Virus record (IMG/VR): IMGVR_UViG_3300009161_000002
DNA: 64,000 nt
Direction: 5' to 3' (one strand)
Source: an uncultured virus (IMG/VR IMGVR_UViG_3300009161_000002)
Lineage: Duplodnaviria; Heunggongvirae; Uroviricota; Caudoviricetes
Of this stretch, positions 1-16,200 are shown one piece after another; positions within the stretch are counted from its first letter, which is position 1; every line of letters begins with the position of its first letter. The translations under genes were made by a program, and so were the position numbers. The notes under the pieces were generated by a model. It was not told the origin of the DNA. It did no database searches and was given only the letters and a program-made list of their open reading frames with translations.

Positions 1-3000
1 TCCTGTTCCAGTTACTCCTTGGAATCCTAAGATACCTTGAATACCCTGAATGCCTCTTAACCCTTGAACACCTTGTATCCCTTGTATTCCTTGAGCACCA
101 ATACCTCCAGTACTTCCTATAGAACCTTGAGTTCCGGTAGCCCCTTGTGTTCCAATTCCACCTGTAGTACCTTGATTTCCAGTAGCTCCAATTGTACCTT
201 GAGTTCCAATACTTCCTTGAGAACCTTGAGAACCAACGGCACCCTGAGAACCTATAGCTCCTATAGCACCTTGCAATCCTGTAAGTCCCTGTAATCCAGT
301 ACTACCTTGTGCACCTGTTCCACCTGCTGAACCTATAGCACCTTGAGAACCAATAAAACCTTGTGTCCCTTGAGATCCTGTAGAACCTGTTGTACCTATA
401 GTACCTTGACTTCCCTGAGCACCGGTTGCACCAGTTGTTCCTGTTGTACCCTGTAAACCAGTGGTACCTGTAGCACCCTGACTACCAGTAGTACCTGTAG
501 TTCCGGTAGTACCCTGAGTACCAACTGCACCCTGGCTACCTGTAGATCCAACAGAACCTTGAGATCCCGTAGTTCCTGTAGTTCCCTGAGTACCAGTTCC
601 TCCAGTGTTACCAATAAAACCTTGGATTCCTTGTGTTCCTATAACTCCTTGCTGTCCTTGAATACCCTGTATTCCTTGTAAACCCTGAGCACCTTGAGTA
701 CCAGTTGTTCCTACTGTTCCTTGAGCTCCTTGTGAACCATTAGATCCAATAGTGCCTTGTAAACCTTGAGTACCTTGAGATCCAATTTGTCCTTGAGAAC
801 CTATTGTGCCCTGTGTACCCTGTATGCCCTGAATTCCTTGTGTTCCTTGTGTTCCAGTAGCACCTTGACTACCAGTAAATCCTTGAATTCCTTGAGTTCC
901 AAAAGTTCCCTGGCTTCCTGTAGTACCTTGTGTACCAAATGTACCTTGACTTCCAGTTAAACCTTGTAAGCCAACACTTCCCTGCAAACCTGTAAAACCT
1001 TGCACACCTTGTGATCCCGTAGTCCCAGTTGTACCAGTAGTTCCTTGTTGTCCAATAGCACCTTGAGTTCCTGTTGTTCCAGTAGTTCCTTGGAAACCAA
1101 ATATACCTTGGCTCCCTTGACTTCCTACTGCACCTTGACTACCTTGTGATCCAACTGCACCTTGAGCTCCTGTATTTCCTAATAGACCTTGTGTTCCCTG
1201 AGAACCTTGAGCACCACTAGTTCCTGTAGATCCAGTAAATCCTTGAATACCTTGACTACCTTGACTACCTACAGCTCCTTGAGAACCTGTATTTCCAACA
1301 GTTCCTTGAAAACCTGTAATACCTTGCATACCTTGAATACCCTGTATACCTTGTAAACCCTGAGTTCCTTGAGAACCAGATGTTCCCGTAGTACCTGTTG
1401 TACCTTGGGATCCTGTGGTTCCTACACTTCCTTGTGTACCAGTTGCACCCTGAGAACCTGTTGTTCCAACTGAACCTTGAAGTCCTGTTAAACCCTGTAA
1501 ACCAGTAGTTCCTTGTATGCCTTGTATGCCCTGAGTACCTTGTGTTCCAATTAATCCTTGAGTTCCTGTATTACCTTGTATTCCTTGACTACCAACAAAA
1601 CCCTGTATACCTTGTGTGCCTGTATTTCCTTGTGCACCAATATTACCAGTAAAACCTTGAATACCTTGAATTCCTAATAGACCTTGTATTCCTTGTATAC
1701 CCTGGAGACCAATAAGACCTTGAAGACCAGTTGTACCTGTAGTTCCCTGAGATCCTACTGTACCCTGTGCACCAGTAGATCCTAAAGTACCTTGTGCCCC
1801 TTGACTTCCTGTACTACCTGTATTACCAATAATTCCCTGAATTCCTTGTGTGCCTTGACTTCCATTTATACCAGCAGTACCTTGAGAACCAATTGTTCCT
1901 TGTGTTCCAGTTGTTCCTTGTGTACCAATATTACCTTGTGATCCAGTTGCTCCTTGTGATCCCGTAGCCCCAGTTGTACCTATAGTTCCTTGAGAACCAA
2001 TAGCACCTTGAGTTCCAGTATTACCAATAGATCCCTGAGAACCTGTAGTACCAGTAGTACCTTGGAATCCAGTAGTGCCCTGTGCACCAGTTCCTCCAGT
2101 AGATCCAATTGCACCTTGACTTCCAATTGCTCCTTGAGAACCTGTATTTCCTGTTGTACCTGTGGTTCCTTGAAGTCCTTGAGTACCCTGAACACCTTGA
2201 AGTCCTTGAGTTCCTTGAGATCCAGTAGTTCCCTGAAGACCTTGGATGCCTTGGGAACCAGTAGTACCTTGTAAACCCTGAAGACCTTGCAGACCCTGAA
2301 GACCTTGTGAACCAGTAGTGCCTTGAGATCCAGTTGTGCCCTGAAGACCTTGTAGACCCTGAGTGCCTTGAGTCCCTGTGGTTCCTTGAATACCCTGTAT
2401 TCCCTGAGTCCCAGTAGTGCCTTGAGACCCTGTGGTTCCCTGAAGCCCTTGAGTACCTTGTAATCCTTGAGTTCCTTGAGTTCCTTGATTTCCTTGGATA
2501 CCTTGAACACCCTGAACACCCTGGAGTCCCTGGAGACCTTGAGTTCCTGTTCCTCCAACAGCACCCTGAGTACCTATTGCACCCTGAGACCCTGTAGTAC
2601 CTATTGTACCTTGTGATCCAGTTGCTCCTTGACTACCTATTCCTCCAGTTGTTCCTGTAGTACCTTGTGAACCAATACTACCTTGAGTACCAGTTGTTCC
2701 AGTAAAACCCTGACTTCCTGTTGTTCCTGTTGCTCCTTGGGATCCAATAAATCCTTGGCTACCAACTGTTCCCTGAGTCCCTGTTGTTCCAGTAGATCCA
2801 ATAGCTCCCTGTGAACCAATTGTTCCTTGGGTTCCGGTTGTTCCTGTGCTACCTTGAGTTCCTGTTGTACCAGTAGAACCTTGTGATCCATTTATACCAG
2901 CAGAACCTTGACTACCAGTAGTTCCCTGTGAGCCATTTAAACCTTGAGTACCATTAGCACCCTGAGTACCAACAGAACCTTGAGAACCAACGGCACCCTG

Positions 3001-5808
3001 AGTTCCAGTAGTGCCCTGGCTACCTACTGTACCTTGGATTCCTTGTAGACCTAAAATACCTTGAGTACCTTGTGTACCAGTTGTTCCCTGACTGCCAGTT
3101 GTTCCTTGTGTACCTACAGTTCCTTGAACACCTTGTGTTCCTTGAGTACCTTGTGAGCCTTGAATACCTTGAATTCCCTGTAATCCTTGTAGACCAGTTA
3201 ATCCTTGTATACCCAAAAGTCCTTGAGTACCTTGTATACCAAGTAAACCTTGAATACCTTGTAAACCTGTTAAACCTTGCGCACCTGTAATACCTTGTAA
3301 GCCTGTGATACCTTGTAAGCCAAGAATACCCTGAATTCCCTGTACACCTTGGATGCCTTGACTGCCGGTCTGACCTTGAGATCCGGTTGTACCTTGAGTA
3401 CCATTAATACCTGCTGTACCTTGTGTGCCTATGACACCTTGAAGACCAACAGCTCCTTGAACACCTAATAATCCTTGTGTCCCTTGGATTCCTTGTGTCC
3501 CTTGAGCTCCAGTATTTCCAAGTAAACCTTGAATACCCTGAATTCCTTGCAATCCTTGTAAACCTGTAAGCCCTTGAGTTCCTGTTAAACCTTGAGTTCC
3601 AGTAACACCTTGTAATCCAATTGTTCCCTGTACACCTTGAAGTCCTTGACTTCCTACGGCACCAGTTGTACCCTGAAATCCAACAGCCCCTTGACTACCA
3701 GTTGATCCAGTAGTTCCTTGGCTACCAGTAGCACCAACAGTTCCTTGGGAACCAACTGTACCTTGTGCTCCTGTATCACCTATTATTCCTTGGAAACCAG
3801 TTTCTCCTTGAATACCAGTTTCACCTTGAATACCAGCACCACCAATTATACCTTGATTACCTTGAACACCTTGTAAACCAGTTGTTCCTTGTCTGCCTTG
3901 AATTCCTTGACTACCAGTTTGACCTTGAACTCCTAATGTTCCCTGTGTACCTTGACTACCAGTGGTTCCCTGTGAACCATTTATTCCACTTGTTCCTTGT
4001 AAACCCAAAGTCCCTTGAGTACCTTGAGCTCCTGTTAAACCTGTAGTACCTTGAAGTCCTGTAGTTCCTTGCGCACCTGTGCTACCAGCAGTACCTTGAC
4101 TACCCGTATTACCAAAAATACCCTGAGTACCTTGTAATCCTGTTAATCCTTGAGTTCCAAAGGTACCTTGTGCACCTGTCTGACCTTGACTTCCTGTATT
4201 ACCCTGAGAACCAAAAGTACCTTGGCTACCGGTAATTCCTTGTGTACCCTGAATACCTTGTAATCCCTGAAGTCCTACTGTTCCTTGAGTACCAATTGCA
4301 CCTTGCAGTCCAGTTGTACCTTGCAGTCCAGTAGCTCCTGTAGCACCTTGAGTTCCAGTTGTACCTTGAGACCCAGTAGTTCCAGTAGAACCCTGACTTC
4401 CAGTATTTCCTAATATACCTTGAATACCTTGAGTACCTTGTGCACCTACTAATCCATTAGTACCTTGAACACCTTGTATCCCTTGTGTTCCAGTTATTCC
4501 TTGTAGACCTAAAATACCTTGTGTTCCTTGAGTCCCTTGCAATCCTATACTACCTTGAGAACCTGTATTTCCAGTGGTACCTTGGGTACCTTGAGAACCA
4601 ACAACACCAAGTATACCTTGTAATCCTTGTATTCCTTGGCTGCCAGTAGTACCTTGATTTCCTAATTCCCCCTGAGTTCCTTGACTACCTTGTAGTCCAG
4701 TTAATCCTGTAGTTCCTTGTGTTCCTACAGCTCCTTGACTACCTGTACTTCCGGTTGTACCTTGACTACCAGTTGTACCTAAAATTCCTTGTGTCCCTTG
4801 TGTACCCTGAGTACCTACTTGTCCTTGTACTCCGTTAGTTCCTTGAGTTCCTGTTAATCCTTGTAAGCCTGTAGTACCTTGAGTACCTATAGAACCTTGT
4901 GTACCAGTTGTACCAAGTATACCTTGAGTTCCTTGTATACCTTGCACTCCTTGAATCCCTAATGTACCTTGAGTACCTTGGGAACCGGTTAAACCCTGTG
5001 ATCCTGTAGCTCCGACAGCACCTTGTGTTCCTGTAACTCCCTGAGAACCAGTACTACCTGTGGTACCTTGGCTTCCTGTATTTCCTGTAAAACCTTGTAT
5101 ACCAACAGCTCCTTGAGAGCCAGTGCTTCCTGTTGTTCCTTGAGAGCCAGTATTACCTAAAGTACCCTGAGTTCCTTGTATGCCTTGTGTTCCTTGTACT
5201 CCTACTGAACCTTGTGAACCTACAGTACCTTGATTTCCAGTTGTACCTTGATTACCAAGTATACCCTGTGTACCCTGTGTACCTTGATTTCCAGTTGTTC
5301 CAGTCTGTCCTTGTGTTCCGGTTATACCTTGTGAACCAGTAGAGCCTGTTGTTCCTTGGGAACCCGTATTTCCATCTAATCCTTGAGCACCTGTAGTTCC
5401 TTGAACCCCTGTAGAACCAGTTGTTCCTTGACTACCATTTGCTCCAATACTACCTTGAGTTCCAGTTTCACCTTGAATACCAACTCCACCAGTAAATCCT
5501 TGTAAACCTTGAAAACCTTGAATACCTTGATATCCTTGGATACCTATTCCAACAAATCCTTGTATTCCTGTAGGTCCTTGAAAACCTTGAATACCTGGAT
5601 ATCCTTGAACACCTATTCCAATAAAACCTTGAATTCCTTGTGGACCATCAAAACCTTGGATTCCCTGGATGCCTTGTATTCCTATAGGTCCTTGAATACC
5701 TACATTACCTTGTATACCAGTGGTTCCTTGTACACCTTGTCCTGCAAATGCACCTGAAATACCTTGAATACCTTGGACACCTTGAATACCTTGGATACCT
5801 ACATTTCC
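1..5808 (-). repeat. Degenerate 9-nt tandem repeat encoding Gly-X-Y (GTQ, GSQ, GIQ, GLQ, GTT, GAQ)
   Basis: Plus strand shows recurrent nCC (Gly codons) every 9 nt and CCTTG/CCCTG (Gln-Gly) throughout. Confidence 0.95.
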
Positions 5809-6084
5809 TTCATTACAAAGCCAATTAACTATTTCATTTAAACCTTGTGCTACCGTAGTATCTTGTGCAATTATGGTAGCACCTTGACATACAATATCAG
5901 CACCTGTATATACAATACAATCTGCATCAAATGATTCAGCACACTTCTCCTCATCACCACAAGCTTCTGTTGTGCATGGAGGGGGTGTAGTTAATCCAGA
6001 TGTACATACGTTACACTTTCCACAGTTATTGCATCCTGATGTAGGAAATACTCCCTCTATAGAACTAGATTTTTTAGGTATCAT
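1..6084 (-). CDS. Giant collagen-like fibre protein (3'-partial, >=2028 aa): Cys-rich 92-aa N-terminus, then ~645 Gly-X-Y triplets
   Basis: Manual translation from ATG 6084 gives MIPKKSSSIEGVFPTSGCNNCGKCNVC...WLCNEGNVGIQGIQGVQG. The 9-nt periodicity runs to base 1 in the same frame (...GFQGVTGTG). It is absent from the ORF track, presumably because no stop lies in the window. Confidence 0.93.
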   Translation of the reverse strand, partial: MIPKKSSSIEGVFPTSGCNNCGKCNVCTSGLTTPPPCTTEACGDEEKCAESFDADCIVYTGADIVCQGATIIAQDTTVAQGLNEIVNWLCNEGNVGIQGIQGVQGIQGISGAFAGQGVQGTTGIQGNVGIQGPIGIQGIQGIQGFDGPQGIQGFIGIGVQGYPGIQGFQGPTGIQGFVGIGIQGYQGIQGFQGLQGFTGGVGIQGETGTQGSIGANGSQGTTGSTGVQGTTGAQGLDGNTGSQGTTGSTGSQGITGTQGQTGTTGNQGTQGTQGILGNQGTTGNQGTVGSQGSVGVQGTQGIQGTQGTLGNTGSQGTTGSTGSQGAVGIQGFTGNTGSQGTTGSTGSQGVTGTQGAVGATGSQGLTGSQGTQGTLGIQGVQGIQGTQGILGTTGTQGSIGTQGTTGLQGLTGTQGTNGVQGQVGTQGTQGTQGILGTTGSQGTTGSTGSQGAVGTQGTTGLTGLQGSQGTQGELGNQGTTGSQGIQGLQGILGVVGSQGTQGTTGNTGSQGSIGLQGTQGTQGILGLQGITGTQGIQGVQGTNGLVGAQGTQGIQGILGNTGSQGSTGTTGSQGTTGTQGATGATGLQGTTGLQGAIGTQGTVGLQGLQGIQGTQGITGSQGTFGSQGNTGSQGQTGAQGTFGTQGLTGLQGTQGIFGNTGSQGTAGSTGAQGTTGLQGTTGLTGAQGTQGTLGLQGTSGINGSQGTTGSQGTQGTLGVQGQTGSQGIQGRQGTTGLQGVQGNQGIIGGAGIQGETGIQGETGFQGIIGDTGAQGTVGSQGTVGATGSQGTTGSTGSQGAVGFQGTTGAVGSQGLQGVQGTIGLQGVTGTQGLTGTQGLTGLQGLQGIQGIQGLLGNTGAQGTQGIQGTQGLLGVQGAVGLQGVIGTQGTAGINGTQGTTGSQGQTGSQGIQGVQGIQGILGLQGITGLQGITGAQGLTGLQGIQGLLGIQGTQGLLGIQGLTGLQGLQGIQGIQGSQGTQGTQGVQGTVGTQGTTGSQGTTGTQGTQGILGLQGIQGTVGSQGTTGTQGAVGSQGSVGTQGANGTQGLNGSQGTTGSQGSAGINGSQGSTGTTGTQGSTGTTGTQGTIGSQGAIGSTGTTGTQGTVGSQGFIGSQGATGTTGSQGFTGTTGTQGSIGSQGTTGTTGGIGSQGATGSQGTIGTTGSQGAIGTQGAVGGTGTQGLQGLQGVQGVQGIQGNQGTQGTQGLQGTQGLQGTTGSQGTTGTQGIQGIQGTTGTQGTQGLQGLQGTTGSQGTTGSQGLQGLQGLQGLQGTTGSQGIQGLQGTTGSQGTQGLQGVQGTQGLQGTTGTTGNTGSQGAIGSQGAIGSTGGTGAQGTTGFQGTTGTTGSQGSIGNTGTQGAIGSQGTIGTTGATGSQGATGSQGNIGTQGTTGTQGTIGSQGTAGINGSQGTQGIQGIIGNTGSTGSQGAQGTLGSTGAQGTVGSQGTTGTTGLQGLIGLQGIQGIQGLLGIQGIQGFTGNIGAQGNTGTQGIQGFVGSQGIQGNTGTQGLIGTQGTQGIQGIQGTTGLQGLTGLQGSVGTTGSQGATGTQGSVGTTGSQGTTGTTGTSGSQGTQGLQGIQGIQGMQGITGFQGTVGNTGSQGAVGSQGSQGIQGFTGSTGTSGAQGSQGTQGLLGNTGAQGAVGSQGSQGAVGSQGSQGIFGFQGTTGTTGTQGAIGQQGTTGTTGTTGSQGVQGFTGLQGSVGLQGLTGSQGTFGTQGTTGSQGTFGTQGIQGFTGSQGATGTQGTQGIQGIQGTQGTIGSQGQIGSQGTQGLQGTIGSNGSQGAQGTVGTTGTQGAQGLQGIQGIQGQQGVIGTQGIQGFIGNTGGTGTQGTTGTTGSQGSVGSTGSQGAVGTQGTTGTTGTTGSQGATGTTGLQGTTGTTGATGAQGSQGTIGTTGSTGSQGTQGFIGSQGAIGSAGGTGAQGSTGLQGLTGLQGAIGAIGSQGAVGSQGSQGSIGTQGTIGATGNQGTTGGIGTQGATGTQGSIGSTGGIGAQGIQGIQGVQGLRGIQGIQGILGFQGVTGTG

Positions 6085-6154: not shown

Positions 6155-6592
6155 TTATACTGTATAAGTAATTAATAATTCAGCTCCTGCTGTAGTTGTA
6201 CTATAAAAAAATGCTCCACTAGCAAAAGTATTATTTAATGCACCTGCATCAAAGTTAATTGTTTCTCCTGGTTTAATAATTACTGTATTAACAGTAGCAT
6301 TACCAGTTCCTACATTAGAGAAAGATATACTATATATTGCTGCAGCAATTGAACCATTTGAACCAGATACCCGTAAAATTCCAGGTGTTCTTGATATTGG
6401 AGATAATAAACTAGTAGCAGCTTGTGTATTTATTTCTACATCAACAAGAGTTGCTTCGGTAGCAAGTCCTGTAGTGTTAATTACAACTTCTGTTAGTTGA
6501 TCACAAGCACACTGTAGTCCTTGTAATGATTTTAACTGATATGGAAAGTTATTTCCTTTATTTCCATATTCTTTAGTATTTCCAATTGACAT
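6155..6592 (-). CDS. Hypothetical virion/fibre-associated protein (beta-rich C-terminus)
   Basis: 145-aa ORF rich in T/G/A/S, directly upstream of the collagen gene. Confidence 0.6.
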   Translation of the reverse strand: MSIGNTKEYGNKGNNFPYQLKSLQGLQCACDQLTEVVINTTGLATEATLVDVEINTQAATSLLSPISRTPGILRVSGSNGSIAAAIYSISFSNVGTGNATVNTVIIKPGETINFDAGALNNTFASGAFFYSTTTAGAELLITYTV

Positions 6593-6630
6593 ATCTATAT
6601 AATTTAATGAGAATGATACACACTATATAT

Positions 6631-6646
6631 TATAATATACTAAAAA
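6631..6646 (-). promoter_or_regulatory. Candidate late promoter motif TTTTTAGTATATTATA
   Basis: The same GTATATTATA core occurs upstream of the next gene (7219-7234), and GTATATTA occurs at 21038-21045 on the plus strand. Confidence 0.4.
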
Positions 6647-6708
6647 TAATTGGTATAACCAAAAAACCCCAGATGTTTCTTCCAGGGTTTTAAATAATTT
6701 AATAGTTG

Positions 6709-7194
6709 TTATACTATGATAAGGTAGTGAATTTTAACTACATTGTTTAAATTATCTACACTAGAACTATTACTAAGAACTAATCTAAATGAACCATTTA
6801 CAATATTAGTTACTGATGCTACAGGAATACCAGAACTTCCTGGAGCATTTGCATCACTATACTCAACTGATACTAAAATCTTAGATCCAGTAACTACATT
6901 TGGGTTATTTACTGTAAAACCAGTTACATTATCAGCTACTAAAGTAGAGGAAACTGTAGTAATAATACCATTAAGGGCATTAACAGTTACTGCTGTTGAA
7001 ATAGTTCCAGTCTGAGTTACATTAGCTGTATTGTACAGTGTTTGTAATGGTGCAGCATTAACTGCAAGTGGTAAATAACTATCATCACGTGTAGGATCTT
7101 TTGCTCCTACAGCAAGTAAGTTAGACACATCGGTTGGTAAAGTAGCACGGTACTGACCGTTCTTAATCCAAGAAATAAAATTTAAAATATCCAT
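6709..7194 (-). CDS. Putative virion structural protein (starts MDILNFISWIK)
   Basis: ATG at 7194 after an A-rich leader; V/T/N/S-rich beta-strand C-terminal domain. Confidence 0.6.
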   Translation of the reverse strand: MDILNFISWIKNGQYRATLPTDVSNLLAVGAKDPTRDDSYLPLAVNAAPLQTLYNTANVTQTGTISTAVTVNALNGIITTVSSTLVADNVTGFTVNNPNVVTGSKILVSVEYSDANAPGSSGIPVASVTNIVNGSFRLVLSNSSSVDNLNNVVKIHYLIIV

Positions 7195-7218
7195 AGCTAT
7201 AGTTTTTTTTGTATACAG

Positions 7219-7234
7219 TATAATATACAAAAAA
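7219..7234 (-). promoter_or_regulatory. Candidate late promoter motif TTTTTTGTATATTATA
   Basis: Matches 6631-6646 and lies ~25 nt upstream of ATG 7194. Confidence 0.4.
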
Positions 7235-7302
7235 TATATGATATAAAAAAATCTCTAGCTTATTTTTTAGAGATTTTATATATTCTATTAAATAATATTA
7301 AA

Positions 7303-7509
7303 CTAACCACATAAATAACCTACAACAAATGATATTAAAATTATCAAAGCAATGGCTATATTACTAATTAATCTAGCTTGTGGATCTTCTTCCCAGACAT
7401 GATGTGTATGGTTGTAGTAAGGTTTAGTTATATTAATTGACCATAACCAAAGAAATGCTACAAAAATTGTGACTATCCCCCAACCTATTGCTTTTAAAAC
7501 TAGTATCAT
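7303..7509 (-). CDS. Small membrane protein with two TM helices
   Basis: Two hydrophobic stretches; start overlaps the upstream stop. Confidence 0.65.
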   Translation of the reverse strand: MILVLKAIGWGIVTIFVAFLWLWSINITKPYYNHTHHVWEEDPQARLISNIAIALIILISFVVGYLCG

Positions 7510-12619: not shown

Positions 12620-12823
12620 ATGAATTCAACTATGATTAAGACTGCAGAAGCAGTAAAGAATGAGCTTGTTAAATTTGCTCAACAGTTCTATGGTACAGAG
12701 TTAAAACAAAGTACAATTAATGAACTACTATTATTACCTATTGATGACCAAGTATGGTTACTCAATCAATACAAAGAAGAAATTAGTACAACAGTACAAC
12801 CTGATTTAGCTGATATATACTAA
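12620..12823 (+). CDS. Hypothetical protein
   Basis: Probable start MNSTMIK within the called ORF 12518-12823. Confidence 0.6.
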   Translation: MNSTMIKTAEAVKNELVKFAQQFYGTELKQSTINELLLLPIDDQVWLLNQYKEEISTTVQPDLADIY

Positions 12824-13035
12824 TGTATAGTATAATCTTCCGGTTGTATATATTACTAGGGATAGTAAGACCACAAGACGATGTGGATGGTAGAACTATA
12901 TATACCATCCACACTAAGTCTACTCATATTGAGTATGCTTATAAAGCAGAAGTACTCCAGTATTTAAAAACTGGAGTCTTTGTTTATGATGAAACTATAG
13001 ATGATCCTGTGGATACATCTATATTTATAAAATAA
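12823..13035 (+). CDS. Hypothetical protein
   Basis: 70 aa; TAATG-coupled to the upstream gene. Confidence 0.65.
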   Translation: MYSIIFRLYILLGIVRPQDDVDGRTIYTIHTKSTHIEYAYKAEVLQYLKTGVFVYDETIDDPVDTSIFIK

Positions 13036-13036
13036 T

Positions 13037-13130
13037 ACATCAACTGTAAATAACCGAGGGGGAGTTTTTCAAACTTTGCACTCTATGCGGTTTACATACA
13101 AGTAGAAATACTTGAGGGGGTTGTTGATGT
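13037..13130 (+). ncRNA. Unidentified multi-stem structured RNA
   Basis: ACATCAAC/GTTGATGT closing stem, TGTAAA/TTTACA, CCG/CGG, and a CAAGTA-GAAA-TACTTG GNRA hairpin. Confidence 0.5.
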
Positions 13131-13140
13131 CTGAGCAAAG

Positions 13141-13283
13141 TAGTAATGTACCATTCCTGATTCCCAAGGTCAGGCAGTTGTAGTAATAGTTTCTTTATGG
13201 CAAATAAAAACTTAGTGTCATCTTAGAATGCGTAAAAGGCCTGAAATACTAGTTCTACTATTACAACTGAGTACAGAGGGCTA
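13141..13283 (+). ncRNA. Twister self-cleaving ribozyme (type P1) with enlarged P5
   Basis: P1 TAG/CTA; L1 UAA; P2 UGUA/UACA; P4 CCUGA/UCAGG; L4 UUCCCAAGG; 3' GAGGG; pseudoknot pairings CCC/GGG and CC/GG are available. Confidence 0.8.
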
Positions 13284-13386
13284 AGTAGTGTAGTACTTGA
13301 ACTACACATAGGTGAAAACCCTTGAAGATGTAACCAGACATTGGCACTATGGATACTAATGTGCGAAACCCCAAAGTATTAAAACT

Positions 13387-13476
13387 AATAGTAATGACTC
13401 TTGCGTGATGGAAAAGAGTCCGAAGGATTTAACACCCCGAAAATGTAGAATAATAAAGGGTTCTACCATTACTATT
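13387..13476 (+). ncRNA. Unidentified multi-stem structured RNA
   Basis: Perfect 10-bp AATAGTAATG/CATTACTATT enclosing ACTCTT/AAGAGT and GTAGAA/TTCTAC stems. Confidence 0.5.
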
Positions 13477-13508
13477 TTTATAATGTATAAACTTAAAACC
13501 TAGAAATT

Positions 13509-13976
13509 ATGGGAAGTGTATTAGATTATATAGAATGTCCAAATTGTAAAAGTGAAGCAAACAGTGATTACTATTACAAAACAGGTGAAGAATATATTAA
13601 TTGTGGTAACTGTGGTTATCATCGTTCAGTAACTATTGTTAATAGAGATAAGAAATTATCTGAATTAACAGATGATGATTGGAAAGTTGAAGAGCTTAAA
13701 AACCCTTATGGTGCTTATAGATTAAAAGTATACCATAGTCCTATTAGACAATGTGGTTCATTAGAAAATGAAGAACAGTATAATAACTTTAAAACAGCTA
13801 ATGAAGTTGATGTGGAGATAGAATATTGTTCTGTATCAAGACTAATTGATGGTGAAATTGTTACTGAAGTTATTATTGATAATGGACCTGAAGTAGATTC
13901 AGCTGGATATACAGCAGAAGATAGAAAAAATGAGAATGACCTGAATGCATTAGAAAATTCAGGTACAGAGTATTAA
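13509..13976 (+). CDS. Zn-ribbon protein
   Basis: CPNC...CGNC at the N-terminus. Confidence 0.8.
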   Translation: MGSVLDYIECPNCKSEANSDYYYKTGEEYINCGNCGYHRSVTIVNRDKKLSELTDDDWKVEELKNPYGAYRLKVYHSPIRQCGSLENEEQYNNFKTANEVDVEIEYCSVSRLIDGEIVTEVIIDNGPEVDSAGYTAEDRKNENDLNALENSGTEY

Positions 13977-16126: not shown

Positions 16127-16200
16127 GATTCCATAGCTCAACTGGATAGAGCACTACCCTTCTAAGGTATAGGTTATAGGTTCGACTCCTATTGGAATCA
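16127..16200 (+). tRNA. trnR: tRNA-Arg (anticodon TCT), CCA not encoded
   Basis: Acceptor GATTCCA/TGGAATC, D-arm GCTC/GAGC, anticodon loop CT-TCT-AA, T-arm ATAGG-TTCGACT-CCTAT. Confidence 0.95.

What the first reader, a model, noticed from the sequence alone, without database searches (positions are those of the whole stretch)
13141..13283. Twister ribozyme with a ~95-nt structured domain in P5
Seen: UAG-UAA-UGUA-CC-AUU-CCUGA-UUCCCAAGG-UCAGG-[P5]-AG-UACA-GAGGG-CUA. This maps onto the twister consensus (as recalled for rice twister: UAA-CACU-GC...CCGG-UCCCAAGC-CCGG...AGUG-GAGGG), with compensatory changes in P2, P4 and the second pseudoknot (CC/GG). P5 is a 15-bp stem (13175-89/13255-69) enclosing further hairpins, and P1 is only 3 bp. 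Predicted cleavage is U13144/A13145. Inference: it processes the early polycistron, and the insert may be a regulatory or cargo domain.
Basis: partly seen in the sequence, partly recalled or inferred. Interest (0 to 1): 0.75.

Follow-up and report, generated by a model that had tools for sequence, protein, structure and literature searches.

The report
Phage twister ribozyme, variable P5 arm
This 153-base stretch between two small phage genes is very probably a working copy of a self-cutting "twister" RNA, of a phage subfamily that the standard RNA catalogue misses. Its long extra arm is a fast-changing add-on, not a conserved sensor or cargo.

Summary
A covariance model built from 25 other phage copies, not this one, finds window 13136-13288 at 85 bits, E 4e-21, once in 64 kb.

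It belongs to a large family in lake-phage contigs, with 77 distinct copies collected. P4, the base of P5, P2 and P1 all covary. No Rfam twister model matches any copy, including natural copies with a 12-24 nt P5.

The P5 arm is 12-195 nt, median 86.5, and 95 nt here. Its interiors are almost all unrelated: 56 of 71 have no relative. This copy's interior folds no better than shuffles.

First, a conserved ~100-nt three-way-junction RNA (13037-13140) sits just upstream. In 17 loci that carry it, it is followed by this twister type (8) or by a bona fide Hatchet ribozyme (8), which is strong indirect support for cleavage. Second, a fifth P2 pair (C13151:G13271) covaries and competes with pseudoknot T2.

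Cleavage itself is untested. The scan has met this family before on other DNA.

The parts
13136..13288 (+). Whole twister-type element as matched by covariance model R1
   Evidence: 85.0 bits, E 4.2e-21, model positions 1-118 of 118
13141..13143 (+). P1, 5' strand (UAG); pairs with CUA 13281-13283
   Evidence: In the family P1 covaries at 6 of 6 positions, but only 61% of cells pair in a fixed register
13144..13145 (+). Predicted scissile U/A step (inferred, not shown)
   Evidence: Corresponds in position to U6/A7 of Osa-1-4. Among 76 aligned copies, column 9 is U in 70 and column 10 is A in 75
13147..13151 (+). P2, 5' strand UGUAC; pairs with GUACA 13271-13275. The fifth pair is C13151:G13271
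   Evidence: P2 98.9% paired; pair 14:228 CG 52, UA 16, UG 3; pair 16:226 CG 60, UA 7, UG 3, other 1
13151..13152 (+). CC, 5' strand of candidate pseudoknot T2; complementary to G13169 and G13168
   Evidence: CG 62, UG 10 and CG 73, UG 1; no change on both sides. C13151 is also claimed by the fifth P2 pair
13156..13174 (+). P4 hairpin CCUGA / UCAGG with loop L4 UUCCCAAGG (13161-13169)
   Evidence: 5 of 5 pairs changed on both sides, 99.5% of cells paired
13163..13165 (+). CCC of L4, candidate T1 partner of G13278-G13280
   Evidence: invariant C-G at all three pairs (partly forced by the search pattern)
13175..13269 (+). P5 arm, 95 nt. The 8-bp conserved base is CAGUUGUA/UACAACUG, extended here to 14 pairs plus one mismatch. 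The interior is not conserved
   Evidence: (P5 base 97.3% paired, 6 of 8 pairs covary)
13276..13280 (+). GAGGG: candidate catalytic G13276, A13277, and the T1 3' strand
   Evidence: column 231 is G in 68 of 70 letters and column 232 is A in 69 of 71. A46 and G48 are essential in Osa-1-4
13281..13283 (+). P1, 3' strand (CUA)
13037..13140 (+). Conserved upstream RNA module: a three-way junction 13037-13130 (closing stem ACAUCAAC/GUUGAUGU) plus a tail ending AGCAAAG, 4 nt before the cut
   Evidence: 17 loci, 28 predicted pairs, 6 with compensatory change. Always beside a ribozyme
13284..13508 (+). Non-coding stretch between the ribozyme and the 155-aa ORF; would stay attached to the ribozyme after cutting
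   Evidence: z -1.73; no Rfam family. Present in contigs of RNA libraries

Best explanation
Window 13136-13288 encodes a type-P1 twister-class self-cleaving ribozyme of a phage-specific subfamily. The subfamily has no P3, always has a P5 arm, and carries C-G where the rice twister has G13-C31 in T2.

Inferred mechanism: when the + strand early/replication transcript is made, L4 docks on GAGGG (T1) and on CC (T2), and the RNA cuts itself between U13144 and A13145.

The 5' product is the mRNA of the 70-aa gene. It would end in the ~100-nt three-way-junction module with a 2',3'-cyclic phosphate. The 3' product would start with a 5'-OH and carry the folded ribozyme, followed by 225 nt of leader and the 155-aa and 319-aa genes.

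The likely role is to cut a long message into pieces with structured, protected ends. The 95-nt P5 arm is a tolerated and rapidly exchanged expansion, not a conserved functional domain.

Shown here: the sequence, family membership, covariation of P1, P2, P4 and P5, and interchange with Hatchet. Inferred: cleavage, the exact site, the nature of the ends, and the effect on RNA stability.
For: 1; 85 bits, E 4e-21, against a model built without this copy.

2. One search, on 74 distinct rows: 90.5% of cells pair, against 77.2% in shuffles (0 of 500 shuffles as high) and 34-45% with partners slid by 1-3 columns. P4 changes on both sides at 5 of 5 pairs, P5 base at 6 of 8, P1 at 6 of 6, and one P2 pair.

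3. Position mapping: the positions named in the papers for Osa-1-4 (U6, A7, C14, C25, C26, G30, A46, G48) fall on the same letters here. G13/C31 is swapped to C/G.

4; the upstream module occurs in 17 loci.
   - 8 have this twister type downstream within 400 nt.
   - 1 has it just upstream.
   - The other 8 all have an Rfam Hatchet (79.8-82.7 bits, gathering 51) starting at the same junction.
[quoted passage not shown] So ...AGCAAAGUUC/A in L174 and ...AGCAAAGUAGU/A here give near-identical 5' products.

5; a homologue of the 70-aa gene precedes the module both in a Hatchet locus (L183) and in twister loci (L169, L173, L178).

6. (PMC11662667, section read): every tested natural twister with a P5/L5 cleaved above 0.80, so a P5 arm is tolerated.

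7; among 61 copies with a callable downstream ORF, many lie about 30-36 nt upstream of a start codon. The element is therefore typically intergenic and on the sense strand.
Against: - No cleavage assay exists for any member.
- No Rfam twister model (RF03160, RF03154, RF02684) reports any copy. This includes four copies with a P5 of 12-24 nt.
- T1 and T2 show complementarity but no compensatory change. Parts of them were fixed by my search patterns.
- C13151 covaries with G13271. In the rice twister the analogous extra pair (A40C) cut activity to 0.09.
- P1 is only 3 bp here, and the close relative L178 has none.
- The RNA contigs laid cannot show an end at 13145.
Confidence: 0.8

Rival explanations
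1. A conserved twister-shaped RNA that no longer cuts, or cuts poorly. The fifth P2 pair (C13151:G13271) would hold the first T2 nucleotide, so the active double pseudoknot does not form. The element would then act as a structural block, for example a stability element or protein-binding site.
For: - Pair 16:226 covaries: CG 60, UA 7, UG 3, other 1.
- The analogous A40C change in Osa-1-4 lowers activity to 0.09.
- No Rfam match.
- T2 shows only C-to-U changes.
Against: - The catalytic-site letters are kept: A at the site in 75 of 75, G of GAGGG in 68 of 70.
- T1 and T2 complementarity is invariant.
- A true Hatchet ribozyme replaces the element at the same junction in 8 of 17 module loci. That is hard to explain unless cutting is the selected function.
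Confidence: 0.1
2. A regulated (allosteric) twister. The P5 arm would be a ligand- or partner-binding domain, or the P2/T2 competition would be a switch, so that cutting happens only under some condition.
For: - P5 is always present and often long, median 86.5 nt.
- P5 interiors fold somewhat better than shuffles on average: mean z -1.13 over 66 interiors.
- A few interior types recur with different cores.
- Two competing pairings exist for C13151.
Against: - 56 of 71 interiors have no relative in the sample.
- P5 can be as short as 12 nt.
- A genome 98.7-100% identical through the gene, the module and the 5' half of the ribozyme carries an unrelated interior.
- This copy's interior has z +0.87 and no Rfam match.
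- An aptamer would be conserved.
Confidence: 0.07
3. Chance resemblance to the twister consensus in AT-rich intergenic DNA.
For: - No Rfam hit.
- The single-sequence fold is not significant, z -0.95.
Against: - E 4e-21 against an independent family model.
- 77 distinct relatives with covarying stems.
Confidence: 0.01

Closest known systems
Twister self-cleaving ribozyme, type P1 (Roth et al. 2014 as described in PMC5408937 and PMC6154101; Rfam RF03160)
   Same: - Same order of elements: P1, U/A site, P2, T2 strand, P4 with L4, optional P5 on the 3' side of L2, then P2', G-A-GGG and P1'.
- The positions named for Osa-1-4 in the papers read carry the same letters.
- P1 is weak, as in env22.
   Different: - Not detected by any Rfam twister model.
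- No P3, which is reported in 78% of known twisters.
- P5 is universal and long here. It is reported in about 1% of known twisters and as uncommon, mostly combined with P0 or P3.
- The first T2 pair is C-G, not G-C.
- An extra covarying P2 pair uses that same C.
- L4 here is UUCCCAAGG. From memory, untested here, this is one U longer than the rice loop.
Hatchet self-cleaving ribozyme (Rfam RF02678; PMC4604424, PMC6561176)
   Same: - Occupies the same place behind the same upstream module in 8 of 17 loci.
- Cuts at its own 5' edge, so the upstream RNA is released nearly free of ribozyme sequence.
- About 90% of hatchets have a structured P0 on the 5' side of the cut. The module fits that role.
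   Different: - Unrelated fold and sequence.
- The window itself has no Hatchet.
Self-cleaving ribozymes proposed to process bacterial and phage polycistronic mRNAs (review PMC6765202)
   Same: - Intergenic, on the sense strand, near phage genes.
- Different ribozyme classes appear in the same contexts.
   Different: - Here the swap is at one defined nucleotide junction behind a conserved RNA module, not merely within a few kilobases.
- The function remains untested in both cases.

Membership tests
Twister ribozyme class | [quoted passage not shown] | tested here: met
   P4 99.5% paired with 5 of 5 pairs covarying; P2 98.9% paired; P1 covaries at 6 of 6 positions but pairs in only 61% of cells. 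In this copy P1 is 3 bp.
Twister ribozyme class | Scissile step with a conserved A on the 3' side and a less conserved U on the 5' side, in the junction next to P1 | tested here: met
   U13144/A13145. In the family, U in 70 and A in 75 of 76 rows. Definition.
Twister ribozyme class | Pseudoknot T1 between L4 and L1 | tested here: inconclusive
   CCC 13163-65 is complementary to GGG 13278-80. The pairs are invariant in 67-70 rows, so there is no covariation, and CCC was fixed by the search pattern.
Twister ribozyme class | Pseudoknot T2 (two pairs) between L4 and L2 | tested here: inconclusive
   CC 13151-52 is complementary to GG 13168-69. Variants are only C-to-U: 10 and 1 rows, from scans 59, 61 and 62. 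The first C covaries instead with G13271.
Twister ribozyme class | About ten nucleotides over 97% conserved in L1 and L4 | tested here: inconclusive
   The full list is in a figure I could not see. Of the positions named in the text read (A7, G13, C14, C25, C26, G30, C31, A46, G48), seven carry the same letter and G13/C31 are swapped.
Twister ribozyme class | Site-specific self-cleavage giving a 2',3'-cyclic phosphate and a 5'-OH | not testable with these tools
   The only indirect support is replacement by Hatchet at the same junction.
Rfam twister families RF03160, RF03154, RF02684 | Score at or above the gathering threshold of the family model | tested here: not met
   No match even at E<=10 on 13000-13450. 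No match at E<=1 in 12 loci that include the four short-P5 copies. No match with RF03160 alone on 5 records (gathering score 67.2 bits).
Twister-sister (RF02681) | No pseudoknots; cleavage on the opposite strand of the internal loop | tested here: not met
   No cmscan match. The element has the L4/L1 and L4/L2 complementarities of twister. Description.

The most novel reading that the evidence does not exclude
The functional unit may be a two-part cassette, not the ribozyme alone. Its first part is a conserved ~100-nt three-way-junction RNA of no catalogued family (13037-13140). Its 3' end must be made by a self-cleaving ribozyme, and any class will do: this twister variant or Hatchet. On this reading, crAss-like lake phages would use the cassette to form 3' ends without a terminator. 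The upstream message would be left with a folded, cyclic-phosphate-capped tail while transcription runs on. The conserved ribozyme core would also serve as the recombination joint at which downstream gene modules and P5 interiors are exchanged.
Probability: 0.3. Interest if true: 0.7.

Novelty: new variant of a known kind. Interest (0 to 1): 0.45.

Why it matters
The biological role of twister and hatchet ribozymes is still open. Three things here bear on it.

- **A large uncatalogued subfamily.** Standard annotation misses all of them, so counts of ribozymes in phages are too low.
- **A natural swap experiment.** The same upstream RNA module is followed by either of two unrelated ribozyme classes that cut within a few bases of the same point. 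This says that the cut is what matters. It also gives a concrete, testable hypothesis: the cut makes the 3' end of a structured tail.
- **A variant core.** The covarying fifth P2 pair uses a T2 nucleotide, so the core differs from the solved structures. This is of interest to people who study or engineer twisters.

For this single copy the result is ordinary. It is a typical member, and its P5 arm is of typical length for the family.

Tried and rejected
**Rfam.** The whole window at gathering thresholds gave only a tRNA. At E<=10, 13000-13450 gave only a 16.6-bit pntA match and 13270-13560 only a 24.9-bit plastid 3'UTR match.

I could not run it, because I may not hand in an edited sequence and no Rfam models lie on the script machine. 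Natural short-P5 copies (L058, L059, L046, L115; P5 12-24 nt) served instead. They also give no twister match. The insert is therefore not the only reason Rfam misses the family.

**GenBank phages.** blastn of 13036-13508 found no match.

**RNA runs.**
- Contigs of four metatranscriptome runs from three studies (X1, X2, X3, X6) were laid on 12800-13700.
- They cover 13163 onward and nothing upstream of 13141.
- I do not count this as evidence of cutting. These are contigs and cannot show ends. Their starts at 13163 and 13165 lie in the core that many copies share, where assembly graphs break. No DNA run was laid for comparison.

**P5 as a known RNA.**
- A T-arm-like GGUUCAAAUCC in the P5 of L012 was noticed and not pursued.
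- The window's own P5 interior has no relative outside its own record and one identical locus (L113).

**Coremin lead.** GUCCGAAGGAUUUAAC lies in the stretch after the ribozyme, but it recurs in no locus other than the window's own record. My first two patterns for it had the wrong spacing. I left it as a lead.

**Stop-codon recoding.** Reading TAG through does not lengthen the large ORFs, although an amber-suppressor tRNA is present.

**Papers.** Roth et al. 2014 (PMC3867598) is not held, so the consensus figure and the list of conserved nucleotides were not seen. The supplements of PMC11662667, which hold descriptors and P5 lengths, were not opened and may bear on how unusual long P5 arms are.

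Full report
**1. The observation**

- UAG 13141-43, then U13144/A13145 and A13146.
- UGUA 13147-50, CC 13151-52, AUU.
- CCUGA 13156-60, UUCCCAAGG 13161-69, UCAGG 13170-74.
- A long arm at 13175-13269.
- AG, UACA 13272-75, GAGGG 13276-80, CUA 13281-83.

The outer P5 stem (13175-89 with 13255-69) has 14 pairs, one of them G.U, and one A.C mismatch. The element lies in a 473-nt gap between a 70-aa ORF (12823-13035) and a 155-aa ORF (13509-13976), both on the + strand.

Folded alone, the stretch is no more stable than shuffles (z -0.95). A single-sequence fold therefore says nothing either way.

**2. Rfam does not see it**

- cmscan of the whole window at gathering thresholds reports only a tRNA.
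- At E<=10 on 13000-13450 there is no twister, twister-sister or other ribozyme match.
- The same holds for seven related loci.
- It also holds for twelve loci that include four natural copies with a P5 of only 12-24 nt.
- RF03160 run alone on five virus records gives nothing either (gathering score 67.2 bits).

The natural short-P5 copies answer that question: the insert is not the only reason for the miss.

**3. It is one copy of a large phage family**

- Relatives of the 319-aa neighbour gene gave 23 loci. Several carry the same core upstream of that gene, with different P4 helices.
- Over all loci then held plus the window, 138 pattern hits were found. Of these, 87 had a matching P2 3' strand followed by GAGGG within 460 nt. 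They collapse to 77 distinct elements, one of which is two tandem copies read as one.
- The 51 hits without a 3' half include many that do not look like the family at all, for example coding sequence. They also include some family members cut by a contig end (L039, L090) or with no 3' half found (L045, L055, L092, L134, L140).

**4. Covariation**

An alignment of the 25 shortest elements (A1) gives these figures:
- 90.6% of cells paired, against 74.9% in shuffles (0 of 500 as high) and 34-44% when partners are slid.
- P4: 5 of 5 pairs changed on both sides.
- P5 base: 7 of 8.
- P1: 6 of 6, but only 62% paired.
- P2: 1 of 4.

Model R1, built from A1 without the window's copy, finds the window element at 85.0 bits, E 4.2e-21. 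The next match in the 64 kb scores 11.2 bits, E 1.

R1 run over 100 sources gave 76 matches at E<=1e-5, aligned as A4. The 100 sources were the window, 7 related loci, L025-L104 and 12 variant loci. L105-L144 were left out for the cap. On 74 distinct rows:
- 90.5% paired, against 77.2% shuffled.
- P4 99.5%, P5 base 97.3%, P2 98.9%, P1 61.0%.

A4 is fitted to the model, so it leans towards this structure. A1, made by MAFFT, gives the same picture.

**5. The pseudoknots and an unexpected pair**

T1 (CCC with the GGG of GAGGG) and T2 (CC with the GG of AAGG) are complementary in every true member, but they never change on both sides. Part of that invariance was forced by my patterns. I therefore scanned for copies that differ at single T2 positions.

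- First C not C: 14 loci. Eleven are family members, and all eleven have U.
- Last G of L4 not G: 2 loci, neither family-like.
- Second C not C: 4 loci. One is a family member, with U.

Of the eleven U copies, eight also have A instead of G at the junction position just 5' of the P2 3' strand, and three keep G. In A4 this pair (columns 16:226, here C13151:G13271) reads CG 60, UA 7, UG 3, other 1. P2 therefore has a fifth, covarying pair whose C is also the first T2 nucleotide.

In the rice twister, the change that creates the analogous pair (A40C, pairing with G13) lowered activity to 0.09. The authors ascribed this to loss of T2. I cannot tell whether this family has a remodelled T2, a triple, or two alternating states.

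**6. Mapping onto the known twister**

From the papers read:
- The rice Osa-1-4 ribozyme cuts between U6 and A7.
- T2 contains G13-C31 and C14-G30.
- C25 and C26 lie in T1.
- A46 and G48 are essential.
- P3 and P5 are lodged in L2.
- The class is defined by P1, P2 and P4, the optional P0, P3 and P5, two pseudoknots, and about ten conserved nucleotides in L1 and L4.

Counting from the cut, every one of these positions falls on the corresponding letter here, except that G13-C31 is C-G. P0, P3 and P5 are reported in 21%, 78% and 1% of annotated twisters. In a test of over two thousand natural type-P1 twisters, P5/L5 was uncommon and mostly combined with P0 or P3, and every such ribozyme cleaved above 0.80. 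P1 is dispensable for cleavage. The layout is therefore twister. The combination of no P3 with an obligatory, long P5 is unusual.

**7. What P5 is**

- Over 76 distinct elements, P5 is 12-195 nt with a median of 86.5. The window's 95 nt is typical.
- Only the first 8 pairs are conserved.
- Of 71 interiors of 25 nt or more, BLAST groups them into 62 clusters, 56 of them single.
- A few types recur with different P4 helices, for example L037, L095 and L102.
- Interiors fold slightly better than shuffles on average (mean z -1.13 over 66; 18% below -2). The window's does not (z +0.87).
- The window's interior has no relative outside its own record and one identical locus (L113).
- A contig that is 98.7% identical over the upstream gene region, 99% in the module and 100% in the 5' half of the ribozyme (L178) carries an unrelated interior and different DNA downstream.
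- A contig from an RNA library joins 13186 to 13259 with 138 other letters between. Another has a loose end that nearly matches (one difference) the L178-type interior.

P5 is an exchangeable arm, and the ribozyme core looks like a recombination joint. It is not a conserved aptamer or cargo.

**8. The surroundings: a module and a ribozyme swap**

The 100 nt upstream (13037-13140) are conserved in other loci. They fold as a three-way junction closed by ACAUCAAC/GUUGAUGU (z -2.0). A pattern for the module found 17 viral loci. Their alignment gives 28 predicted pairs, 6 with compensatory change, and a common tail ending AGCAAAG.

- R1 finds the twister type in 9 of the 17 loci. In 8 it lies downstream of the module, 6 within about 60 nt and 2 about 165 nt away. 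In 1 it lies upstream.
- The other 8 all carry a Hatchet ribozyme at 79.8-82.7 bits (gathering 51), starting at the last bases of the module tail.
[quoted passage not shown] About 90% of hatchets have a structured P0 just 5' of the cut (listing, 92 passages).
- In L174 the junction reads AGCAAAGUUC/AUUACUG. In the window it reads AGCAAAGUAGU/AAUG.
- A homologue of the 70-aa gene precedes the module in a Hatchet locus (L183) and in twister loci.

Two unrelated ribozyme classes that both cut at their own 5' edge are thus interchangeable at one junction. This is the best indirect evidence here that the twister-type element cuts, and that the cut serves to end the upstream RNA just behind the module.

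Most twister copies in my sample lack the module. It was seen near only L028, L038, L040 and L046 besides the own record. The link therefore runs from module to ribozyme, not the reverse.

**9. Genome context**

- From about 6 kb on, the window is 27-34% G+C.
- The + strand block 10.8-43 kb starts with small ORFs of unknown function and continues with a helicase, UDG, DnaB-like helicase, AAA_24 and a PD-(D/E)XK nuclease.
- The - strand holds ORFs of 1979, 3322 and 1553 aa and a collagen-like ORF of more than 2000 aa.
- This is a phage genome, and the ribozyme lies among the first + strand genes. That fits 'early polycistron', but no promoter is shown.
- In 185,579 species genomes the core pattern occurs 7 times, all in metagenome-assembled genomes. 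Two are labelled Sediminibacterium and Bacteroidia. The family is therefore essentially viral, and the host hint is weak.

**10. Verdict**

The element is a real, typical member of an uncatalogued phage subfamily of type-P1 twister ribozymes. It most likely cuts at U13144/A13145 (confidence 0.8). The 'structured regulatory or cargo domain' reading of P5 is not supported.

The scan has reported this family on other DNA many times.

I searched the paper library and saw no description of this subfamily, of the module, or of the swap. Most subscription papers, and the supplements of PMC11662667, were not seen.

Noticed in passing
window 13037-13140: Conserved ~100-nt three-way-junction RNA with no Rfam match. 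It has two G-rich single strands (GAGGGGGAG, GAGGGGGUUG) and a hairpin whose loop varies (GAAA, GCAA, UUUA, or insertions). In 17 viral loci it is always beside a self-cleaving ribozyme.
   Followed up: partly
L172, L174, L175, L177, L179, L180, L181, L183 (about 477-640 or 210-349); also L012 367-503, L020 404-566, L024 883-1041: Rfam Hatchet ribozymes at 80-83 bits in related phage contigs. Eight of them start exactly at the end of the upstream module, where the window has its twister.
   Followed up: yes
L150 2161-2555 (G005 6590-6984); twisters at G005 5930-6077, 6986-7067, 7150-7330: A GOLLD-like RNA (100.8 bits, E 2e-26, below the gathering score of 150) ends 2 nt before one twister copy. 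Another copy lies about 510 nt upstream of the matched part, so the large RNA appears bracketed by twisters.
   Followed up: partly
window 16127-16200: A tRNA with anticodon CUA (amber suppressor; ARAGORN labels it Pyl), also present in relatives (L012, L020). Reading TAG through does not lengthen the large ORFs of this window, so there is no sign of recoding here.
   Followed up: partly
window 13284-13480: The non-coding stretch after the ribozyme is present in contigs of four RNA libraries. In a relative's contig it differs at 2 places in 13263-13480, against 25 places in 13481-13657 inside the next ORF. It may be a conserved leader or ncRNA. It contains GUCCGAAGGAUUUAAC, which recalls the coremin motif of plant-virus exonuclease-resistant RNAs, but this recurs in no other locus.
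   Followed up: partly
L074 442-788: Two twister copies in tandem. The first ends in GAGGA instead of GAGGG and runs directly into the cleavage site of the second.
   Followed up: no
L012 1893-2027: The P5 interior of this copy contains GGUUCAAAUCC flanked by complementary bases, like a tRNA T-arm.
   Followed up: no
window 1-6084, - strand: An open frame of more than 2000 aa at 44-46% G+C, in a phage otherwise 27-34% G+C, with collagen-like Gly-X-Y repeats. Probably a fibre protein.
   Followed up: no
L068 612-669, - strand: A weak Pistol ribozyme match (25.4 bits, gathering 34.5, E 0.25) about 130 nt from a twister copy.
   Followed up: no
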